Source: an uncultured Eubacteriales bacterium
Lineage (GTDB): Bacteria > Bacillota > Clostridia > Oscillospirales > Oscillospiraceae
Reading direction: 5' to 3'
NCBI GenBank assembly: GCA_900317375.1
Contig: ONGJ01000002.1
Coordinates: 78,841-142,840 of the forward strand
Length of the DNA: 64,000 nt
Under the pieces are notes generated by a model. It had not been told where the DNA came from. It did not search any database and saw nothing but the letters and a program-made list of their open reading frames with translations. Numbering within the stretch: position 1 is the first letter of the stretch; the number at the start of each line of letters is the position of its first letter. The position numbers were made by a program, and so were the translations under genes. This document shows positions 4,490 to 38,449 of the stretch, in pieces.

Positions 4490-4855
4490 TCATTCGAATG
4501 CGTCTGTAAGGTGCTCGCAGCGGGTCGGGCCCTCCGGGCCCTGCGGTGCGTAGATTTCCAGCACGTCAAAGCGCGGCTGCAGATCCTGCGCCCAGGGCCT
4601 TCCGGCCAGGAAGAAAGACGCCGTCATTCTCAGCTTCTGCTGCTTGGACGCGGTCACAAATTCTCTGGCCTCTCCGTGGCTGCTGCTTTTGCGCAGCTTC
4701 ACCTCCACAAAAGCCAGGATGTCTCCCTTTTGCGCGATGATGTCGATTTCCCCGAGGCGGCAGCGAAAATTCCGCTCCCGTATGCGATAGCCTTCCTTTT
4801 CCAGCTGCGCCGTAGCCAGGTTCTCTCCCCAGGCGCCGAGTTCCGTCTTTTTCAT
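4490..4855 (-). CDS. yraN: YraN family (UPF0102) endonuclease-like protein
   Basis: ORF 4490..5050 trimmed to [11 protein letters not shown]... Conserved GEIDIIA...FVEVK pattern. ATGA overlap with the rnhB stop; rnhB-yraN is a conserved gene pair. Confidence 0.85.
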
Positions 4856-5610: not shown

Positions 5611-6798
5611 TCAGGAATACAGGAATCTGAGGATCAGCTCCTCCCAGGCCTCCGCCGTTTTGTAGCCGCCGATTGCTTCCTCGTTCAGCAGCCTTCCCTC
5701 TCCGTCAAAGAAGTAATTATCCGGCCAGCCCTCGTTCCGGTACGGCTTAAGGCCGGGGCAGTCCCGGAAGATGGGGTAGGTCACGCCGGTGTCCTCCGCC
5801 GTTTCTCTGGCTTCCTCGTCCGTCACATCCTCATCTCGGCCGTAGACGCCGAGAAACAGTACGCCGGCATTCCTGTACTTCTGATACAGGGCTTCCATAT
5901 CCGGCATCTCCTTGACGCACACGCCGCAGTGCGGCTCCCAGAAGTTCAGGATGACAAGCCGCGATCCCTCGATGATGGACTCATCCACATGGTTTCCGTA
6001 GATATCGGTCGCGCTGAAGGTCAGCCGGTCAGGCGCGGCAGCAGTGCTGCCGCTTTCCTGCGGTTCGTACGAATCGTCATAGGCCTGGCTGTGTACCGTC
6101 GCATTCGGCGGCAGCTGGGCCGCGCTCCCGAGGGCCTCCCAGGAGAGCGAGTCCTTGATGGTGGTATCCGGCTGCTCCGTTTCGGCGACGCTGTATTGTC
6201 TGAGCACGTCATAAGGCTTTCCGTAGTCCGTAAAGCCGCTCTCCCGGATCATCTGGAGCCAGTAGGTATTGGTGGAAAAATAGAGCGTCACATCCCGCCC
6301 GTCCAGATCGTACTCAAAAACATAGTAGTTTTCGATCTCTTCCGCATATTTCAGTACCCCTCCGCTCAGATCCATGTGCGCCACGTTGTCGGACCATGCC
6401 GACAGAACCTCGGCCTCATCCACATCCTCTGCTTCGGTGTGGTCTGCGCCGCCCATGCTCGCGGTATACGTAAAGACTCTTGCGGTCGGATAATTGTCAA
6501 AATATTTCAGCTCATAGCCTTCCGGCGTCTGTGTCTCGGTGATCATGGTGGCCACATTGTTTTCGCTGTCGTAATAATACGTTTCTTTCCCGGTAATCTG
6601 GACATCTTCGCCGTTTTCCAGATCGTAGTTGATGTCCGTGTCGATGTACAGGCTTCCGTTGATCTCGATCCATGTCCAGATCGTCTGATCATTCAGCTGT
6701 TTCACCGGGTCAAAGCTGTCGATATCGCTCGCACAGGCAAAGGGGATCATCCCCGTCAGCAGGATCAGGACGAGCAGGACAGACAGGCTTTTCTTCAT
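5611..6798 (-). CDS. lipoprotein with a C-terminal TlpA/redoxin-like thioredoxin domain (extracytoplasmic thiol-disulfide oxidoreductase)
   Basis: ORF 5611..6843 trimmed to MKKSLSVLLVLILLTGMIPFAC (signal peptide ending in Cys). C-terminal LNFWEPHCGVCVKEMP with a CxxC active site and thioredoxin-fold spacing. The N-terminal ~250 aa are unassigned. Confidence 0.8.
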   Translation of the reverse strand: MKKSLSVLLVLILLTGMIPFACASDIDSFDPVKQLNDQTIWTWIEINGSLYIDTDINYDLENGEDVQITGKETYYYDSENNVATMITETQTPEGYELKYFDNYPTARVFTYTASMGGADHTEAEDVDEAEVLSAWSDNVAHMDLSGGVLKYAEEIENYYVFEYDLDGRDVTLYFSTNTYWLQMIRESGFTDYGKPYDVLRQYSVAETEQPDTTIKDSLSWEALGSAAQLPPNATVHSQAYDDSYEPQESGSTAAAPDRLTFSATDIYGNHVDESIIEGSRLVILNFWEPHCGVCVKEMPDMEALYQKYRNAGVLFLGVYGRDEDVTDEEARETAEDTGVTYPIFRDCPGLKPYRNEGWPDNYFFDGEGRLLNEEAIGGYKTAEAWEELILRFLYS

Positions 6799-7034
6799 AT
6801 GCTTCTCCCTCTTTTCTTTTTTGATTCCGCATGGCTTTCGCATTCCCGGAAGACCGTCCTGCAGGAGGAAAGACGGGCTCCGTTTTGCCTCTTCCCAAAG
6901 AGTATATCATCTGCCGGCCTTTTCATAAAGGAAAAAGTGGATCGGCACAGGGCACAAACTGTTCCCATTCTTGCAATCGGCGCTGCCATACGCTATGATA
7001 ACCGAAAAACAGCAGGATCAAACAGGAGGCTGCC

Positions 7035-7532
7035 ATGCTTTTCTTCTTTCTGATTTTCGGCTCCGTATGCCTCTTTCTCGGCGGCATTTTCTTTTTGGTT
7101 TTCCGCCGCAGCCGCGCAAGGCATGAGACCTTGAGCCGCACCCTGACGGCGGAAGCCTGGGCAAAGCTCACCGACACGGAAAGCCGGACGGAATACGACA
7201 TCAAAAACAGAGCGCATACGGTCTTTTACGGGGTTTATGAATATGACACCGCCGACGGGCAGCACCTTTCCGCCCCTTCCGACTTTGGCTATCATGATGC
7301 GGCCGGCATCCCCGGGACGCAGGGCAGGCCTGTCAAAATCCGCTATAATCCGAAGCACCCGGAGGAATTTGCCCTCACGGAGGAGCAGGCCGTCTCCGAA
7401 ATGATCTGGCCGAAGTTCCGAAAAGTCGCTCTTCTCCTGATCGTTCTCGGTGTTCTCTTCCTGGCCGCTGCCGCAGCCGCCGGTCTGGGGCTTCTCCCTT
7501 CCCTTTCGGATCTCCTGCCCGCCTCGGAATAA
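7035..7532 (+). CDS. two-TM membrane protein, DUF3592-like
   Basis: N-terminal TM (LFFFLIFGSVCLFLGGIFFLVF), a central ~100-aa soluble segment and a C-terminal TM (LLLIVLGVLFLAAAAAAGLGL). This layout is typical of DUF3592; assigned from memory of the family, not searched. Confidence 0.65.
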   Translation: MLFFFLIFGSVCLFLGGIFFLVFRRSRARHETLSRTLTAEAWAKLTDTESRTEYDIKNRAHTVFYGVYEYDTADGQHLSAPSDFGYHDAAGIPGTQGRPVKIRYNPKHPEEFALTEEQAVSEMIWPKFRKVALLLIVLGVLFLAAAAAAGLGLLPSLSDLLPASE

Positions 7533-7644
7533 GTCCATACTGTAAACAAGCCGCAGGAGGGCACAAAATGAAGCCTTTTCTGCGTGACAATCTGGGGCAG
7601 GATGTGGTAAAATACAGCACACATCAACCTGAAGGAGGATTACC

Positions 7645-9678
7645 ATGAAGAAAACTCTGTCACTGATTTTGGCGCTGATGCTCATGCTGAGCTTCTGCAC
7701 AGCGGCTTTTGCAGCCGAGGCGCCTTCCGCAGAGTCGCAGATCAACACGCTTTTTTCCAGCTTCGCATCGATGAAGCAGCCCGGTCCGGATATCTGGTCC
7801 TACGCCGTAACGGATCTTGACCACAACGGCCGGCTGGAGCTTCTTGCCGCCTGCATGAAGGGCGCTGACCGCCGTACCTCTCTGCTGGCGTGGGAGGTCA
7901 CGCCGGACGGAACAGCGGTTGCGCAGATTCCGACTTCCGGCGCCTATCCCGACGTGATCAAGGGATCGGCGGACACCTACCATAATCTCGCCGACGGCAC
8001 CTGGGCTTATCAGTTCGACGATGTCGCGCCTCACGCTGCCGCTGATCTTGCTGAGAACAAATGTACGGTTCAGCTGAAGGACGGGAAGCTCAGCTTTTCC
8101 GCCTTTGCCAACAAGCTGATCTCCGCGCAGGCCGGTCAGAGCCCGATCAGTTACTTCAACGGCGCCGGTCAGGCCATTACCCCGGAAGACTACAACGCCG
8201 CAGCGGCAAATGCTTTTGCCTCTTCTGCAAAAAGCAGCACCTGCTTTGACTGGTTCCTGGTGACGGATGCGGGTTCTGCCTCCCGGTTTTCCGACAGCTA
8301 TGCCATCTTCAACGGCTCTGTGATGCCGGCCTGGCCGGAGGATGCCGCCCCCAAGGCTGCCGCTCCCGCTGTGACACCGACCGTCACGAATCCCAATGCC
8401 GCTCTCCTGATCACCAAGAGCCCGACAAGTGAAAGTCAGAAGCCCGGTGCCACGGCGCTGTTTATCGCCAACGCCAGCAGCTGGTTCACTGTCAGCTGGA
8501 CCTTTGTCGCCCCGAACGGCGGCGAGTACAGCTCCAGCAGCTTCGCTGCACAGTTCCCCCAGGCTTCTCTGACCGGTGATACCGGCTCTTACCTCAGCGT
8601 CAGGAATGTCACGCCCGAGATGAACGGCTGGGGCGTTTACGCCACCTTCTATGGCCAGAATGCCCAGACCTCGCGCACCGGCACAGCCTATCTGTTTGTT
8701 TCTGACCGTCCTGCCGGCACCTCCGTTACCACCAACCGCACCGCGCCCGGTACCGTGACAGCCGTGGATGCGAACAAGGTTACCATCTCGCTTGCCGAAG
8801 GCGGCAGTGTCCAGGTCCCCTTGGACACCTGCAGTGCGCTCTGCGGCGGCATGACGCCCGGCTGCTCCTGCACGGTATGGTACAACGGGAAAGCAGTCGC
8901 CTCCGGAAATGTCTGGCACGTGGATATCTACGGTTCTCCGGTTCCTGTTGAAGTCCAGCCGGTTCAGACTCCTCAGCCGACCCAGACGCACATGCATTAT
9001 GAATACTACTGCCCGAACTGCTCGCGCTCGGTTCCGGCAAACGCTGAGGTCTGCCCGTACTGCGGCTATCGCTTTACCACCACTTACACCCGCTACTATT
9101 GCCCGAGCTGCTCGAACGAAGTCAGCGGCGACGCCGATGTCTGCCCGTACTGCGGCTATATCTTTGCCACCGGCCTGTACAATCAGGACGGGACCGCTTT
9201 CCATCAGTACGGCGTACAGATTACCGAAGATCCAGAGCATTATTACTGCCCGAGCTGCTCGCACGAGGTCAGTGCCGATATCGACATCTGCCCGTACTGC
9301 GGCTACATCTTCGCAACCGGTCTCTATAACCAGGACGGCACCGCCTTCCATACCTACGGCACAGAGATCACGGATGGGTCCGAGTACGAATCGACAGGCG
9401 GCGTCCCTGACGACGCCATGGGCTGCCCGAACTGCCACGGGACCATTTCCATCTATACGACCGTCTGCCCCTGGTGTGGATATAACCTGAACGGCGGTTA
9501 TTCCGGTTACGGCGATATCCCTGATTATGATGACTATTTTGATTACGACTACGACGATTTCCTGGATTATACGGATTATGTCAATCCGATCGATCCCTAC
9601 AGCGGAACCGTGGATGACTGGGCTGGCTGGAGCGACGACTGGGGTGACTGGGATTACGAAGGCATCGGTAGCTGGTGA
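7645..9678 (+). CDS. secreted multidomain protein: signal peptide, unknown N-domain, Ig-like domain, four tandem zinc-ribbon (CPxC-X10-CPYCG) modules, Asp/Tyr/Trp-rich tail
   Basis: 677 aa. MKKTLSLILALMLMLSFCTAAFA/AEA signal peptide and no later TM. Four copies of the CPxCS-X10-CP(Y/W)CGY pattern (first Cys codon of the first module at 9010). Tail DYDDYFDYDYDDFLDYTDY...WAGWSDDWGDWDYEGIGSW. AGGAGGA RBS 5 nt upstream of the ATG. Confidence 0.85.
   Translation: MKKTLSLILALMLMLSFCTAAFAAEAPSAESQINTLFSSFASMKQPGPDIWSYAVTDLDHNGRLELLAACMKGADRRTSLLAWEVTPDGTAVAQIPTSGAYPDVIKGSADTYHNLADGTWAYQFDDVAPHAAADLAENKCTVQLKDGKLSFSAFANKLISAQAGQSPISYFNGAGQAITPEDYNAAAANAFASSAKSSTCFDWFLVTDAGSASRFSDSYAIFNGSVMPAWPEDAAPKAAAPAVTPTVTNPNAALLITKSPTSESQKPGATALFIANASSWFTVSWTFVAPNGGEYSSSSFAAQFPQASLTGDTGSYLSVRNVTPEMNGWGVYATFYGQNAQTSRTGTAYLFVSDRPAGTSVTTNRTAPGTVTAVDANKVTISLAEGGSVQVPLDTCSALCGGMTPGCSCTVWYNGKAVASGNVWHVDIYGSPVPVEVQPVQTPQPTQTHMHYEYYCPNCSRSVPANAEVCPYCGYRFTTTYTRYYCPSCSNEVSGDADVCPYCGYIFATGLYNQDGTAFHQYGVQITEDPEHYYCPSCSHEVSADIDICPYCGYIFATGLYNQDGTAFHTYGTEITDGSEYESTGGVPDDAMGCPNCHGTISIYTTVCPWCGYNLNGGYSGYGDIPDYDDYFDYDYDDFLDYTDYVNPIDPYSGTVDDWAGWSDDWGDWDYEGIGSW
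9094..9387 (+). repeat. in-frame tandem duplication, 2 x 147 nt (49 aa), each unit one zinc ribbon plus the linker IFATGLYNQDGTAFH
   Basis: Unit 1 is 9094-9240 and unit 2 is 9241-9387. 38 of 49 residues are identical. The 17-codon stretch GYIFATGLYNQDGTAFH has 9 synonymous and 0 non-synonymous differences. Confidence 0.9.
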
Positions 9679-35894: not shown

Positions 35895-36137
35895 GTGCCT
35901 TTCGATAAGAGTGCCAATCCGAAAACCCGCCGCCGCAGAAAGGTTTGCCAGTTCTGCGTGGACAAGGCCACATTCATTGATTACAAGGACACCGCGAAGC
36001 TTCGCCGTTTCCTTTCCGAGCGCAGCAAGATTCTTCCCCGCCGTACCACCGGCACCTGCGCCATGCATCAGCGTCAGCTCACCGAGGCCATCAAGCGTGC
36101 CAGACAGGTCGCGCTTCTGCCCTACGTGACCGACTGA
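35895..36137 (+). CDS. rpsR: 30S ribosomal protein bS18
   Basis: 80 aa with a GTG start after [22 protein letters not shown]...[16 protein letters not shown]. Confidence 0.95.
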
Positions 36138-36150
36138 TCGTCTATTCAGC

Positions 36151-36186
36151 AAAAAACAACCGCCCGCGGGCGGTTGTTTTTTGTTT
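36151..36186. terminator. bidirectional intrinsic terminator (rpsR on + / araD on -)
   Basis: Perfect palindrome AACAACCGCCCG/CGGGCGGTTGTT (36155-36178), flanked by an A tract upstream and TTTTTTGTTT downstream. Confidence 0.85.
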
Positions 36187-36206
36187 ATCCCGGATCAGGA
36201 CGTTCT

Positions 36207-36899
36207 TCAGCCCTGCCCGTAGTAGGCGTTTTTCCCGTGTTTGCGCAGGTAATGCTTATCCAGCAGGGTCTGCTGCATCGGTCCGACGGCGGGATTCAGC
36301 ACAGCGGCATGCCAGTCCATGAAGGCGACCTCCTCCATGACAACGGCATTGTGCACCGCATTCATGGGATCGGTGCCCCAGGCAAAGGGGCCGTGGCTGA
36401 ACACCAGCACGCCGGGAACGGCAGCGGGATCACGGTCGCGGAAGGTCTCGACAATCACGTTTCCGGTTTCCAGTTCGTACTCTCCCCGGATCTCTTTGTC
36501 CGTCATCGGACGCGTGCAGGGAATCTCGCCGTAGAAATAATCAGCCTGGGTCGTGCCCATGGCGATGATCGGGCGGCCGGCCTGTGCAAAGGTAGTCGCC
36601 CAGCGCGAATGGGTATGGACGATGCCGCCGCACTCTGGAAAGGCTTTGTACAGGGCAAGGTGCGTGGCCGTATCGCTGGAGGGCTTCCACTTCCCTTCCA
36701 CGGTTTTCCCGTCCAGATCGAGGACAACCATGTCATCCGGGCACATGCCCTCATAGGGAACCCCAGAAGGCTTGATGACGATCAGGCCGGCTTCCCGGTC
36801 GATGCCCGAAACATTGCCCCAGGTAAACGTAACGAGGTCATACTTCGGCAGAAGCAGGTTTGCTTCACATACAGTCTGTTTGAGAGATTCCAGCATCAC
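36207..36899 (-). CDS. araD: L-ribulose-5-phosphate 4-epimerase
   Basis: 230 aa class II aldolase/adducin fold. [15 protein letters not shown]...AT, and the Y-tail KHYLRKHG. Confidence 0.9.
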
Positions 36900-38449
36900 A
36901 GCACCTCCGGAGCGAGCATTTCAAGCGGCATTGCCTTCCGATAGCGTTCGAGGAAGGCCGAGAAGCCCTCGATGTCCGCAGGGTCGGCCGTCAGGCTGAC
37001 GGATTTGGCATCGGCGAAAACCCGGTTGTCCAAATAATCCTCAAGGCTTTCCCCCTCCGTTTTTTGAAGCATATAGGCAGCAAGCAGCGCCATGCCGTAG
37101 GGGCCTCCCTCGCCAGCCGTCTCCAGAACCGTAACGGGTGCGCCCACCGCCGCCGACAGAAGGCGCTGTCCGACGCCCGGTGTCTTGAAGAAGCCGCCGT
37201 GTCCGGTCAGGCGGTCGATGGCGACATGTTCGGTTCCGGTCAGGATGTCCAGTCCGATCTTCAGCGTTGCCAATGCCGAGAGCAGGTGCGTACGCATGAA
37301 GTTGGCAAGCGTGAAGGAGGCATCCGGTGTGCGGGCAAAAATGGGTCGGCCTTCGTTGAGGCCGGTCACGCCCTCACCGGAGAAATAGTTGAAGCTCATC
37401 AGCCCGCCGCAGTCCGGATCACCCTCCAGTGCCTTGTTGAACAGGCGCGTAAAGAGTTCGCCCCGATCGACATCCGCACCGATCAGACCGGCAAATTCCT
37501 GCAGGAGAGAAACCCAGGCGTTGATATCACTGGTGCAGTTGTTGCAGTGGACCATGGCAACCGGATCGCCGTCAGGGGTCGTCACCATGTCGATCTCACG
37601 GTGAACAGCCAGCGGATGCTCGGTCACAATCATGGCGAAGTCCGAGGTGCCAGCCGAAACGTTGCCCGTGCGCGGACGCACGGCATTCGTCGCAACCATG
37701 CCCGTGCCGGCATCTCCCTCGCAGGGCGCAACCGGAATTCCGGGAAGAAGCGTCCCCGTCGGGTCAAGGAAGCGGGCGCCCGCCTCGGTCAGCGTGCCGC
37801 CGGAAGCCCCTGCGGGCAGTACACGCGGCAGGATCGAACGGAGGTCAATGCCGGTCTGTTCCCGGAACTTGTCGATCATACCCTGATCGTAGTCCAGAGC
37901 CGTGCTGTCGATCGGGAACATGCCGGAGGCCTCGCCGATGCCCATGACCTTCTCACCGGTCAGCTTCCAGTGGATATAACCGGCAAGCGTTGTAAGAAAC
38001 GCGACGGCAGGGACGTGGGCTTCTCTATTCAGGATGGCCTGATAATAATGCGCGATGCTCCAGCGCTGAGGAATATTGAAGCCAAACAGCTTGGTCAGCT
38101 TTTCAGCCGCTTCGCCGGTGATCGTGTTGCGCCAGGTACGGAAGCTGACCAGCTGTCTGTCGTCCTGATCGAAGGGCAGGTAGCCGTGCATCATGGCCGA
38201 AACGCCCAGAGCGCCGACGGTAGTCAGCGGGACACCGAATTTTTCCCGGACACTCATGGCCAGATCTGCAAAGCAGGCCTGCAGGCCCTCCTGTACGAGG
38301 GACATGGGATAGGTCCAGATGCCGCCGTCATACTGATTCTCCCATTCAAAGGAGCCGGATGCAACGGGGACATGGTTTTCGTCAATCAGGACGGCCTTGA
38401 TGCGGGTCGAGCCGAGCTCGATGCCGAGTGCGGTATTCGATAGATTCAT
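36896..38449 (-). CDS. FGGY family carbohydrate kinase, probable ribulokinase (non-AraB type)
   Basis: 517 aa. N-terminal [15 protein letters not shown] phosphate-binding motif and FGGY N and C domains. Translationally coupled (ATGA overlaps) to the permease upstream and araD downstream. Confidence 0.8.

What the first reader, a model, noticed from the sequence alone, without database searches (positions are those of the whole stretch)
7645..9678. Secreted protein with four tandem zinc-ribbon modules and an Asp/Tyr/Trp-rich tail
Zinc ribbons of the CPxC-X10-CPYCG type are normally cytoplasmic or form the cytoplasmic N-termini of membrane proteins. Here they follow a classical cleavable signal peptide (MKKTLSLILALMLMLSFCTAAFA/AE), and no later hydrophobic segment is present. 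The four ribbons are therefore predicted to be exported together with an Ig-like domain. The protein ends in an unusual 55-60-aa tail made almost only of D, Y, W and G (DYDDYFDYDYDDFLDYTDYVNPIDPYSGTVDDWAGWSDDWGDWDYEGIGSW). That composition suggests cation or cell-wall/polysaccharide binding. I do not recognise the domain combination.
Basis: partly seen in the sequence, partly recalled or inferred. Interest (0 to 1): 0.6.

Follow-up and report, generated by a model that had tools for sequence, protein, structure and literature searches.

The report
Exported surface protein with zinc ribbons
A rumen or gut Oscillospiraceae bacterium exports a modular surface protein whose back half is four small cysteine-based metal-binding "zinc ribbon" modules, a module type that normally stays inside the cell; it usually sits next to an exported thioredoxin-like enzyme, and its function is still unknown.

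Summary
The ORF at 7645-9678 (+, 677 aa) has one N-terminal Sec-type signal peptide and no later hydrophobic segment. It has an Ig-like domain, four CPxC-x10-CP[YW]CGY ribbons (Pfam UPF0547 E 4e-25) and a 62-aa tail that is 66% D/Y/G/W.

It belongs to a large, unnamed, multi-copy family of rumen and gut Oscillospiraceae. Every one of 120 homologues has only an N-terminal signal, and many have clear lipoprotein lipoboxes. The family, ribbons included, is therefore extracytoplasmic. The conserved 210-aa N-domain models at pLDDT 93.6 but has no significant PDB fold match.

Among the 148 strongest multi-ribbon proteins in 1.8 billion representatives, only about four are signal-then-ribbon, and three of those belong to this family.

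Members with two or more ribbons have an exported TlpA-like redoxin within about 7 kb in 8 of 11 cases. In this genome, 5 of 7 paralogues have one within 3.2 kb (0.38 expected). No CcdA/DsbD or VKOR was found.

Best reading: a surface protein whose metal-stabilised ribbons and acidic-aromatic tail form an extracellular binding or retention region, with the redoxin keeping the cysteines reduced. Export is well supported; the ribbons' role is inferred.

The scan noted exported Cys/His "beads" in another Clostridia genome (e1-2315476, untested here).

The parts
7584..7613 (+). Promoter-like site GTGACA-18-TGnTAAAAT
   Evidence: Consensus scan, 10 of 12 matches with an extended -10 TG. This is a pattern match only.
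7631..7638 (+). Shine-Dalgarno sequence GAAGGAGG, 6 nt before the ATG
   Evidence: Read directly from the sequence.
7645..7713 (+). Sec (SPase I) signal peptide, aa 1-23, predicted cleavage AFA|AE
   Evidence: It is the only hydrophobic segment and has A-x-A at -3/-1. Cys18 is not a lipobox (-1 is F) and is not conserved in orthologues.
7720..8352 (+). Family-defining N-domain (aa 26-236), beta-rich, with the motif W.Y.VTDLDHNG.LE (a DxDxNGxxE, calcium-loop-like sequence)
   Evidence: Conserved in more than 150 homologues. AF2 pLDDT is 93.6. There is no significant PDB fold match, with best E 7.7e-3 and TM at most 0.34. The only sequence hit is a weak FG-GAP motif match, E 0.055. No Pfam family matches.
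8395..8709 (+). Ig-like domain (aa 251-355, '...LLITKSPTSE...')
   Evidence: AF2 pLDDT is about 88. Foldseek hits are all Ig folds, E about 1e-5. The domain is shared with other lipoproteins in the genome.
8716..8934 (+). Small beta-barrel (aa 358-430) containing Cys396/400/407/409; it is repeated 1-4 times in paralogues
   Evidence: AF2 shows seven strands with pLDDT about 84. There is a weak DUF1344 hit, E 0.023. The repeat consensus appears.
9001..9078 (+). Zinc ribbon 1 (C456, C459, C470, C473)
   Evidence: Pfam UPF0547/DZR/Zn_Ribbon_1. The cysteines are invariant in alignment A2.
9091..9168 (+). Zinc ribbon 2 (C486, C489, C500, C503)
   Evidence: Pfam. Together with ribbon 1 it forms a 90-nt tandem duplication.
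9238..9315 (+). Zinc ribbon 3 (C535, C538, C549, C552), preceded and followed by the conserved linker ATGLYNQDGTAFH.YG..IT(D/E)
   Evidence: Pfam. The linkers have pLDDT below 40 but are conserved in orthologues.
9415..9492 (+). Zinc ribbon 4 (C594, C597, C608, C611; CPWCGY)
   Evidence: Pfam and alignment A2.
9493..9678 (+). Acidic-aromatic disordered tail (aa 617-677) plus the stop codon
   Evidence: Composition; pLDDT about 32. This kind of composition is family-wide.
5611..6843 (-). Divergent neighbour: an exported TlpA/ResA-like redoxin (410-aa ORF; signal peptide, about 250-aa unknown N-domain, Trx fold with W..HCGVC)
   Evidence: Pfam AhpC-TSA 47.4 bits and Redoxin 36.1 bits. A neighbour of this kind recurs beside multi-ribbon members and beside paralogues in this genome.
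7035..7532 (+). Upstream DUF3592 membrane protein (165 aa). It was not found beside the homologues examined, so it is probably not part of the system.
   Evidence: Pfam DUF3592, E 1.4e-8. It is absent from L009, L010, L011 and L012.

Best explanation
The gene encodes a Sec-exported, modular cell-surface or extracellular protein of an undescribed, multi-copy family specific to Oscillospiraceae. After signal-peptide cleavage, the mature protein has five parts. First comes a conserved beta-rich N-domain with a calcium-loop-like DxDxNGxxE motif and no known fold. An Ig-like domain and a small beta-barrel follow. Then comes a variable C-terminal region, which here consists of four Cys4 ribbons on conserved flexible Tyr/Gly/Asp linkers. 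The protein ends in an acidic, aromatic, K/R-free tail.

The ribbons lie outside the cytoplasm. In the strongly reducing rumen or gut habitat, thiolates stay reduced and disulfides are a poor way to stabilise tiny domains. I therefore infer that each ribbon is a metal-stabilised (most likely Zn2+) mini-domain. I further infer that the ribbon array and tail act as a multivalent binding or retention region, attaching to the cell envelope, a partner protein or a substrate surface, rather than as a catalytic unit. The co-located exported TlpA-like redoxin is inferred to keep, or to restore after oxygen exposure, the reduced state of the 16 ribbon cysteines so that metal can bind. The precedent is TlpA reducing ScoI and CoxB before metallation.

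Shown here: the export topology, family membership, the ribbon motifs and the gene linkage. Inferred: metal identity, the binding role and the redoxin-substrate relationship.
For: Export:
- The protein has a single N-terminal hydrophobic segment and an A-x-A site.
- All 120 homologues have the same topology, and many have canonical lipoboxes followed by Pro/Ala/Glu linkers.
- The other domains are typical extracellular modules: an Ig fold and small barrels.

Ribbons:
- Pfam scores are 2-3 times the gathering cut-offs.
- The four Cys and the Pro are invariant across 23 ribbon sequences.
- Ribbon number varies from 2 to 6 among close orthologues. This suits a repeat-type binding or spacer module rather than an enzyme.
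- The same terminal ribbon ends an unrelated surface protein of this genome, which has a signal peptide, five Flg_new repeats and a BspA LRR.

C-terminus:
- The acidic-aromatic C-terminus is family-wide. Net charge is -6.9 against +0.3 for the background, and an aromatic residue occurs in the last two positions in 62% of non-lipoprotein members against 13%.

Redoxin link:
- 8 of 11 members with two or more ribbons have an exported Trx-like gene within about 7 kb, in different arrangements, against 2 of about 75 members with zero or one ribbon.
- In this genome, 5 of 7 paralogues have one within 3.2 kb, where 0.38 is expected (P<5e-5 by permutation).

Precedent: TlpA keeps the metal-ligand cysteines of CoxB and ScoI reduced before metallation (PMC6669012).
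Against: - No experiment or metal analysis was done, so Zn, Fe or disulfides cannot be told apart from sequence.
- The anchor-replacement idea is weak. Ribbons are raw-anticorrelated with lipoboxes (2/42 against 83/156, Fisher 1e-9), but 12 phylogenetically independent contrasts show no signal.
- The redoxin linkage is not family-wide. Only 5 of 79 loci in other genomes show it, which is about background. It rests on roughly two independent multi-ribbon clades plus this genome.
- The genome (94.75% complete) has no CcdA/DsbD_TM, DsbD_2 or VKOR, so no known electron route to or from the redoxins exists.
- The multi-ribbon half was not found in 24 other species of the genus, so it is not essential to the family's core role.
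- No ligand is indicated by any domain match.
- No signal-peptide predictor could be run.
Confidence: 0.45

Rival explanations
1. Metal capture or buffering protein. The tandem Cys4 sites, together with the acidic tail (and the His-rich N-termini of paralogues), would form a high-capacity extracellular sink or scavenger for Zn2+ or other thiophilic metals (Cu, Cd, Fe) in a sulfidic, metal-limited habitat.
For: - There are 16 ligand cysteines and a tail with 17 Asp.
- Multi-ribbon paralogues begin with His-rich stretches directly after the signal peptide (GPHTHAHADD in C136; HADEHDHDHEV in L044, L045, L051 and P0282).
- Ribbon copy number is variable.
- Reduced cysteines would be needed, which fits the redoxin neighbour.
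Against: - Structural Cys4 ribbons bind Zn extremely tightly and are poor donors to importers.
- No metal transporter or Zur/Fur-type regulator is adjacent in the window or in L009-L012.
- The target itself has no His-rich stretch.
- Most family members have zero or one ribbon.
Confidence: 0.15
2. The cysteines form disulfides rather than metal sites. The ribbons would be small disulfide-knotted extracellular modules, and the neighbouring Trx-fold protein would be their oxidase or isomerase (SdbA-like or DsbA-like).
For: - Extracellular Cys-rich modules are usually disulfide-bonded.
- Exported Trx-fold proteins in Gram-positives can act as oxidases.
- No reductive supply line (CcdA/DsbD) was found.
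Against: - The motif is the canonical metal knuckle CPxC...CPxCG, with Pfam zinc-ribbon scores well above cut-off.
- The habitat (rumen and gut MAGs) is strongly reducing.
- No DsbB or VKOR re-oxidation partner was found either.
- The neighbour is of TlpA/AhpC-TSA/Redoxin type, a family mostly made of reductants.
Confidence: 0.1
3. Redox-active array. The ribbons would bind iron as rubredoxin-like Fe(Cys)4 centres, or act as dithiol relays. Together with the exported redoxins they would form an extracellular electron-transfer or thiol-redox chain on the surface of a strict anaerobe.
For: - CPxCG knuckles are shared with rubredoxins.
- There is repeated linkage to exported Trx-fold proteins, and the genome holds an unusual 16 such redoxins without a known membrane partner.
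- The ribbons are arranged in tandem on flexible linkers.
Against: - The knuckle spacing is 10 residues, typical of zinc ribbons, against about 29 in rubredoxin.
- The rubredoxin match in the PDB is not significant (E 0.41).
- The long disordered linkers would make electron hopping inefficient.
- No membrane oxidoreductase is adjacent.
- Ribbon number is not conserved.
Confidence: 0.07
4. The N-terminal hydrophobic segment is an uncleaved N-out/C-in anchor, or the signal is not functional. The ribbons would then stay in the cytoplasm, as in ordinary zinc-ribbon membrane proteins.
For: - Most multi-ribbon proteins are cytoplasmic, or have their ribbons before the first TM segment (99 of 148).
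- No signal-peptide predictor could be run.
Against: - The positive-inside rule applies: MKK lies before the helix and AE after it.
- An A-x-A cleavage site is present.
- Homologues have lipoprotein lipoboxes, which only work for exported proteins.
- The Ig-like and Flg_new/LRR contexts are extracellular.
Confidence: 0.03

Closest known systems
Pfam zinc-ribbon families DZR (PF12773), Zn_Ribbon_1 (PF13240) and UPF0547 (PF10571)
   Same: It has the same CxxC-x10-CPxCG two-knuckle unit, scores well above the gathering cut-offs and forms tandem arrays.
   Different: The known contexts are cytoplasmic: soluble proteins, or N-termini before the first TM helix (99 of the top 148 multi-ribbon proteins). 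Here the ribbons follow a cleavable Sec signal, with no TM helix, and sit at the C-terminus of a protein built from extracellular-type domains.
Modular Gram-positive surface proteins with C-terminal wall-retention repeats (LysM, SH3b, GW, CW_binding_1, SLH)
   Same: It has an N-terminal signal peptide, Ig-like and small-barrel domains, and a variable number of short C-terminal repeats. The terminal ribbon module is shared with an unrelated Flg_new/LRR surface protein.
   Different: None of those repeat families is detected. There is no LPXTG signal or C-terminal TM segment. The repeat unit is a metal knuckle. Wall binding was not tested, and the anticorrelation with lipoboxes does not survive phylogenetic control.
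TlpA-CoxB/ScoI (Bradyrhizobium) and ResA/CcmG-apocytochrome c: extracytoplasmic thioredoxins that keep ligand cysteines reduced before cofactor insertion
   Same: An exported Trx-fold WCxxC protein is encoded beside an exported protein whose function depends on reduced CxxC cysteines (PMC6669012).
   Different: The substrate would be Cys4 ribbons, not a CuA, Sco or haem site. The redoxin carries an extra N-domain of about 250 aa. No CcdA/DsbD electron donor was found in the genome. The partnership is inferred from gene proximity only.
Rubredoxin
   Same: It shares the CPxCG knuckles and four-Cys ligation.
   Different: The spacing is 10 residues against about 29, there is no rubredoxin core, and the PDB rubredoxin match has E 0.41.

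Membership tests
Zinc ribbon (Pfam DZR / Zn_Ribbon_1 / UPF0547) | Two CxxC knuckles separated by a short beta-hairpin, with a profile score above the gathering cut-off | tested here: met
   Four units with x10 spacing. Scores: UPF0547 87.9 bits (cut-off 29), DZR 58.8 (27.3), Zn_Ribbon_1 49.9 (25).
Zinc ribbon (Pfam DZR / Zn_Ribbon_1 / UPF0547) | One Zn2+ bound per unit by the four cysteines | not testable with these tools
   This needs ICP-MS or spectroscopy. The four Cys are invariant in 23 aligned ribbons.
Sec/SPase I secreted protein | Basic n-region, h-region of 10-15 residues, small residues at -3/-1, and no further TM segment | tested here: met
   MKK / TLSLILALMLMLSF / CTAAFA|AE. The only hydropathy peak is at residues 1-27. 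No SignalP was available, and cleavage itself was not testable.
Bacterial lipoprotein (SPase II) | Lipobox [LVI][ASTVI][GAS]C at the end of the h-region | tested here: not met
   The target has L-S-F-C18, with F at -1, and the Cys is not conserved (P0011 lacks it). About 40-60 paralogues or homologues do have canonical lipoboxes.
Sortase-anchored LPXTG proteins | C-terminal LPXTG motif, hydrophobic segment and basic tail | tested here: not met
   There is no hydrophobic C-terminal segment. The tail is acidic and contains no K or R.
Rubredoxin | A fold of about 50 aa with two knuckles about 29 residues apart around an aromatic core, binding Fe | tested here: not met
   The spacing is 10 residues, and the PDB rubredoxin match has E 0.41. 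Fe binding was not testable.
FG-GAP / integrin-type calcium-binding propeller | Repeated FG-GAP blades forming a beta-propeller | tested here: not met
   There is only one DxDxNGxxE motif. The profile hit to CRTAC1 has E 0.055 over 20 residues. The AF2 N-domain has no propeller match, with TM at most 0.34.
TlpA/ResA-like extracytoplasmic redoxin (the neighbour at 5611-6843) | Exported Trx fold with a WCxxC active site, fed by CcdA/DsbD | tested here: inconclusive
   Signal peptide, W..HCGVC motif, and Pfam AhpC-TSA and Redoxin above cut-off. No CcdA/DsbD_TM or DsbD_2 was found in a genome that is 94.75% complete.

The most novel reading that the evidence does not exclude
Strictly anaerobic gut and rumen Firmicutes may use metal-Cys4 knuckles as their extracellular counterpart of disulfide-stabilised mini-domains. 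Tandem exported ribbons, serviced by dedicated exported thioredoxin-like proteins that lack any known membrane electron donor, would form a previously unrecognised surface module class. That class might serve retention or binding, or even redox or metal handling, and it sits on a protein family whose conserved N-domain has a new fold.
Probability: 0.2. Interest if true: 0.75.

Novelty: new variant of a known kind. Interest (0 to 1): 0.5.

Why it matters
Zinc ribbons are treated as intracellular modules, and automatic annotation has already mislabelled this protein as an RNA-polymerase or Spt4-like subunit. If Cys4 ribbons are routinely exported by strict anaerobes, and are paired with exported redoxins, that would change how Cys-rich secreted proteins of gut and rumen bacteria are annotated. 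It would also point to an extracytoplasmic thiol-maintenance system that lacks the classical CcdA/DsbD supply. In addition, it defines a large, multi-copy and wholly uncharacterised surface-protein family of abundant rumen Oscillospiraceae, with an N-domain that has no solved structural relative. If the ribbons prove to be only structural decoration, the finding is a useful annotation correction and not much more.

Tried and rejected
- Foldseek of the whole model returned only Ig-fold (antibody) hits and said nothing about the other domains.
- The N-domain model alone gave no significant PDB match. A profile search against PDB sequences gave only a 20-residue FG-GAP-like hit.
- A word-indexed search with the ribbon region (aa 445-620) found only the protein's own subfamily plus one kinase, so it revealed no new contexts.
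- I tested the idea that ribbons replace the lipid anchor. The raw anticorrelation was strong, but 12 independent contrasts on a 198-sequence tree showed nothing. I therefore treat it as a clade effect.
- I tested whether redoxin linkage holds across the whole family. It does not (5 of 79 loci, about background). It holds only for multi-ribbon members and for this genome's paralogues.
- CcdA/DsbD_TM, DsbD_2 and VKOR were searched for in this genome and none was found.
- NCBIfam gave only sub-threshold hits. 'ribbon_DG_selen' scored 28.7 bits against a cut-off of 130, and 'ExtJ' matched only the signal peptide. Both were rejected.
- A resemblance between the linker and CW_binding_1/choline-binding repeats was considered, but Pfam shows no hit at E up to 1.
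- DUF3592 as a system component was rejected because it is not conserved beside the homologues.
- The multi-ribbon half was not found in 40 related genomes.
Full report
**Observation**

The window has a 677-aa ORF at 7645-9678 on the + strand. A strong Shine-Dalgarno sequence (GAAGGAGG, 7631-7638) and a promoter-like site (7584-7613) precede it.

The N-terminus, MKKTLSLILALMLMLSFCTAAFA|AE, has the n/h/c layout of an SPase I signal with A-x-A at -3/-1. In a 19-residue hydropathy scan, the only stretch above 1.6 is residues 1-27, and the next best value is 1.22. Cys18 is not a lipobox cysteine: the -1 residue is Phe, and the Cys is missing in orthologue P0011.

Pfam finds four zinc-ribbon units far above the gathering cut-offs: UPF0547 87.9 bits against 29, DZR 58.8 against 27.3, Zn_Ribbon_1 49.9 against 25. 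Each unit reads C-P-x-C-x10-C-P-[YW]-C-G-Y, with the first cysteines at residues 456, 486, 535 and 594.

**Anatomy**

An AlphaFold2 model built on 75 family sequences (mean pLDDT 72.9) resolves the following parts:
- an N-domain (aa about 26-236, pLDDT about 90);
- an Ig-like domain (aa about 251-355, pLDDT about 88);
- a seven-stranded small barrel (aa about 358-430, pLDDT about 84);
- four small hairpin ribbons (pLDDT 60-80);
- disordered linkers and tail (pLDDT below 40).

Foldseek of the whole model hits only Ig folds. The N-domain modelled on its own, with 62 sequences, reaches pLDDT 93.6 and pTM 0.89. It has no significant PDB neighbour: the best E is 7.7e-3 and TM is at most 0.34. A profile search of PDB sequences gives only a 20-residue FG-GAP-like hit (E 0.055).

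That hit covers the nearly invariant motif W.Y.VTDLDHNG.LE. The motif has the D-x-D-x-N-G-x-x-E spacing of integrin-type calcium loops. This reading rests on my own knowledge of such loops and was not tested.

**Family**

The protein belongs to a large family with no Pfam model for its N-terminal 60%. More than 150 clusters match at E<=1e-3, and the best non-identical relatives are 30-50% identical.

All members with names are 'hypothetical' or 'zinc ribbon domain-containing protein'. One IMG copy is mislabelled 'RNA polymerase subunit RPABC4/Spt4'.

A scan of species-representative genomes returned 79 loci. Nearly all come from ruminant and gut Oscillospiraceae or 'Ruminococcaceae' MAGs, including Candidatus Limivicinus; two are titled Chloroflexi or Anaerolineaceae MAGs. 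Several copies occur per genome. The window's own genome has at least six further paralogues.

The shared core is signal, N-domain, Ig-like domain and one to four small barrels. The C-terminal end is variable. It can hold Tyr/Asp/Gly-rich low-complexity repeats (GG[WY]AGSNYY[DE]NE), a single ribbon at the very C-terminus (for example ...VTCPNCGxEVxSAYxxCPYCGYxLW), or arrays of two to ten ribbons.

**Topology of the ribbons**

Every one of 120 homologues has exactly one hydrophobic segment, at the N-terminus. Many carry canonical lipoprotein lipoboxes (LAAC|G, LSAC|G, LTAC|G) followed by Pro/Ala/Glu linkers. Lipoboxes function only on exported proteins.

This fits with the positive-inside rule (MKK before the helix, AE after it) and with the Ig-like and barrel domains. 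Together they place the whole mature protein, ribbons included, outside the membrane.

The terminal ribbon module also ends an unrelated surface protein of this genome. That protein has a signal peptide, five Listeria-Bacteroides (Flg_new) repeats and a BspA-type LRR.

I rate export at about 0.9. No signal-peptide predictor was available, and cleavage itself is untested.

**How unusual this is**

I searched a ribbon profile (23 sequences, alignment A2) against 1.84 billion representative proteins and got 6,983 hits at E<=1e-3. The 148 best are all multi-ribbon proteins. They sort as follows:
- 51 have their ribbons before the first TM helix;
- 48 have no TM segment;
- 21 are mixed;
- 18 are polytopic;
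- 9 look like 'N-terminal helix then ribbons'.

Most of those nine are basic-flanked anchors. Counting listed family members that fall outside the classified set, clear signal-or-lipobox-then-ribbon cases number about four. Three belong to this family (P0010, P0021, P0282). The fourth is an unrelated lipoprotein with eight ribbons, P0171.

The specific multi-ribbon C-terminal half was not found (E<=1e-8) in 24 other species of the same genus or in 16 other families of the order. Exported ribbon arrays are therefore rare, and sporadic even within the family.

**Redoxin linkage**

The divergent neighbour at 5611-6843 encodes an exported TlpA/ResA-like redoxin. It has a signal peptide, an unknown N-domain of about 250 aa and a Trx fold with W..HCGVC.

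A homologous redoxin lies beside or near the 47%-identical (L009), 81%-identical (L012) and 48%-identical (L010) relatives. The arrangements differ: divergent-adjacent, downstream-convergent, and 4.4 kb upstream. It is absent from a short 7-kb contig, L011.

Across all loci, members with two or more ribbons have such a gene within about 7 kb in 8 of 11 cases. Members with zero or one ribbon have one in 2 of about 75 cases. These cases reduce to roughly two independent clades plus this genome, so the statistic overstates independence.

In this genome, 16 ORFs match a Trx-domain HMM. Five of the seven N-domain paralogues have one within 3.2 kb, where 0.38 is expected (0 of 20,000 permutations reached 5). 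One of these paralogues has ten RanBP2-like ribbons (W.CP.CG...CWNCGY), a His-rich N-terminus and a GGYD repeat, and it sits next to two tandem redoxins.

Across the broad family in other genomes, the linkage is at background level (5 of 79 loci).

No CcdA/DsbD_TM, DsbD_2 or VKOR gene was found in the 94.75%-complete genome. The redoxins therefore have no known membrane redox partner, and this remains unexplained.

**C-terminus**

The acidic-aromatic character is not peculiar to this protein. In 198 family members, the last 40 residues have a mean net charge of -6.9, against +0.3 for the proteome background. K plus R make up about 1.5%, Y 12% and W 4%. An aromatic residue lies in the last two positions in 62% of non-lipoprotein members, against 13% of the background.

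The inter-ribbon linker ATGLYxxDGTAFxTYGxxITDGSE is conserved among orthologues although it is predicted to be disordered. In P0016 and P0017, a related unit (GSGYRTYGVPITDGSEE) repeats without ribbons.

**Interpretation**

I read the protein as a modular surface or extracellular protein. Its C-terminal region is a multivalent, metal-stabilised binding or retention region.

The reasoning is an inference. In a strongly reducing habitat, disulfides cannot reliably stabilise very small extracellular domains, whereas Cys4-metal knuckles can. Variable copy number, terminal position and occurrence on an unrelated surface protein are what one expects of a repeat-type interaction module and not of an enzyme.

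The redoxin is most simply read as the factor that keeps or restores the reduced ligand cysteines. The documented precedent is TlpA reducing CoxB and ScoI before metallation (PMC6669012).

I tested the attractive idea that ribbons substitute for the lipid anchor. Raw counts support it (2 of 42 lipoproteins against 83 of 156 non-lipoproteins carry ribbons, Fisher 1.4e-9). However, 12 phylogenetically independent contrasts show no signal, so I do not rely on it.

The rivals are metal scavenging or buffering, disulfide-knotted modules with the Trx protein acting as oxidase, a redox-active Fe(Cys)4 array, and a cytoplasmic orientation. They are listed with their tests. Only the cytoplasmic orientation is clearly disfavoured by the data.

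**Novelty and limits**

The ribbon itself is a known module. Three things are new:
- its placement in tandem behind a Sec signal, on a family with an N-domain of unknown fold;
- its recurrent neighbourhood with exported redoxins;
- the family itself, which no database describes.

I did not test it, but it suggests the theme may be wider.

No function was demonstrated here. Metal identity, ligand and the redoxin partnership are inferences.

Noticed in passing
G000 genome-wide (e.g. window 5611-6843; C84:15608-16747; C136:34705-36099 and 36120-38168; C142:10-1362): 16 ORFs match a TlpA/Redoxin Trx-domain HMM; those inspected have a signal peptide and an unknown N-domain of about 200-250 aa, and some have a C-terminal CarboxypepD_reg/Ig-like domain. 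No CcdA/DsbD_TM, DsbD_2 or VKOR was detected in the 94.75%-complete genome. The electron source or sink for these redoxins is unknown.
   Followed up: partly
G000:C47, ORF starting at 232 (+), 499 aa: A flavodiiron-type protein (metallo-beta-lactamase plus flavodoxin) with a C-terminal rubredoxin carries an N-terminal twin-arginine-like signal (MSAEIARRDFLKAAAAGAAG...AFAED). This suggests a Tat-exported O2/NO-reducing enzyme.
   Followed up: no
G000:C136:31682-34282 (-), 866 aa: A paralogue with ten RanBP2-like ribbons (W.CP.CG...CWNCGY), three before and seven after the N-domain and Ig core. It has a His-rich start (GPHTHAHADD), a long GGYD repeat and a ribbon as its last 18 residues. It sits next to two tandem exported redoxins.
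   Followed up: partly
Loci L020 3824-6835, L023 3807-6870, L050 3457-6466, L011 2123-4841: Many family members (about 13-29 of 83 loci) are preceded on the same strand by a conserved cassette. It consists of a protein of about 170 aa, a 268-aa orphan response regulator and a membrane protein of about 480 aa with a DUF218 (SanA/YdcF-like) domain. This suggests a regulated envelope operon. The cassette is absent from the window locus.
   Followed up: partly
G000:C55, ORF starting at 4626 (+), 819 aa: An unrelated surface protein (signal peptide, five Flg_new/Listeria-Bacteroides repeats, BspA-type LRR) ends with the same terminal ribbon as paralogue C92:43762-45630 (...DDSTYNVITCPSCGQEVSMAYSDCPYCGYRIYG).
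   Followed up: partly
window 9004-9171 and 9094-9387: Ribbons 1 and 2 form a 90-nt tandem duplication (78% match, TRF score 215). Ribbon number varies from 2 to 6 among close orthologues.
   Followed up: partly
window 7645-9678 (public copies of the protein): One IMG copy of this protein is annotated 'RNA polymerase subunit RPABC4/transcription elongation factor Spt4'. This is a mis-annotation caused by the ribbon motif.
   Followed up: yes
window 7720-8352: The family N-domain models with very high confidence (pLDDT 93.6, pTM 0.89) yet has no significant PDB structural neighbour, which makes it a candidate new fold.
   Followed up: yes
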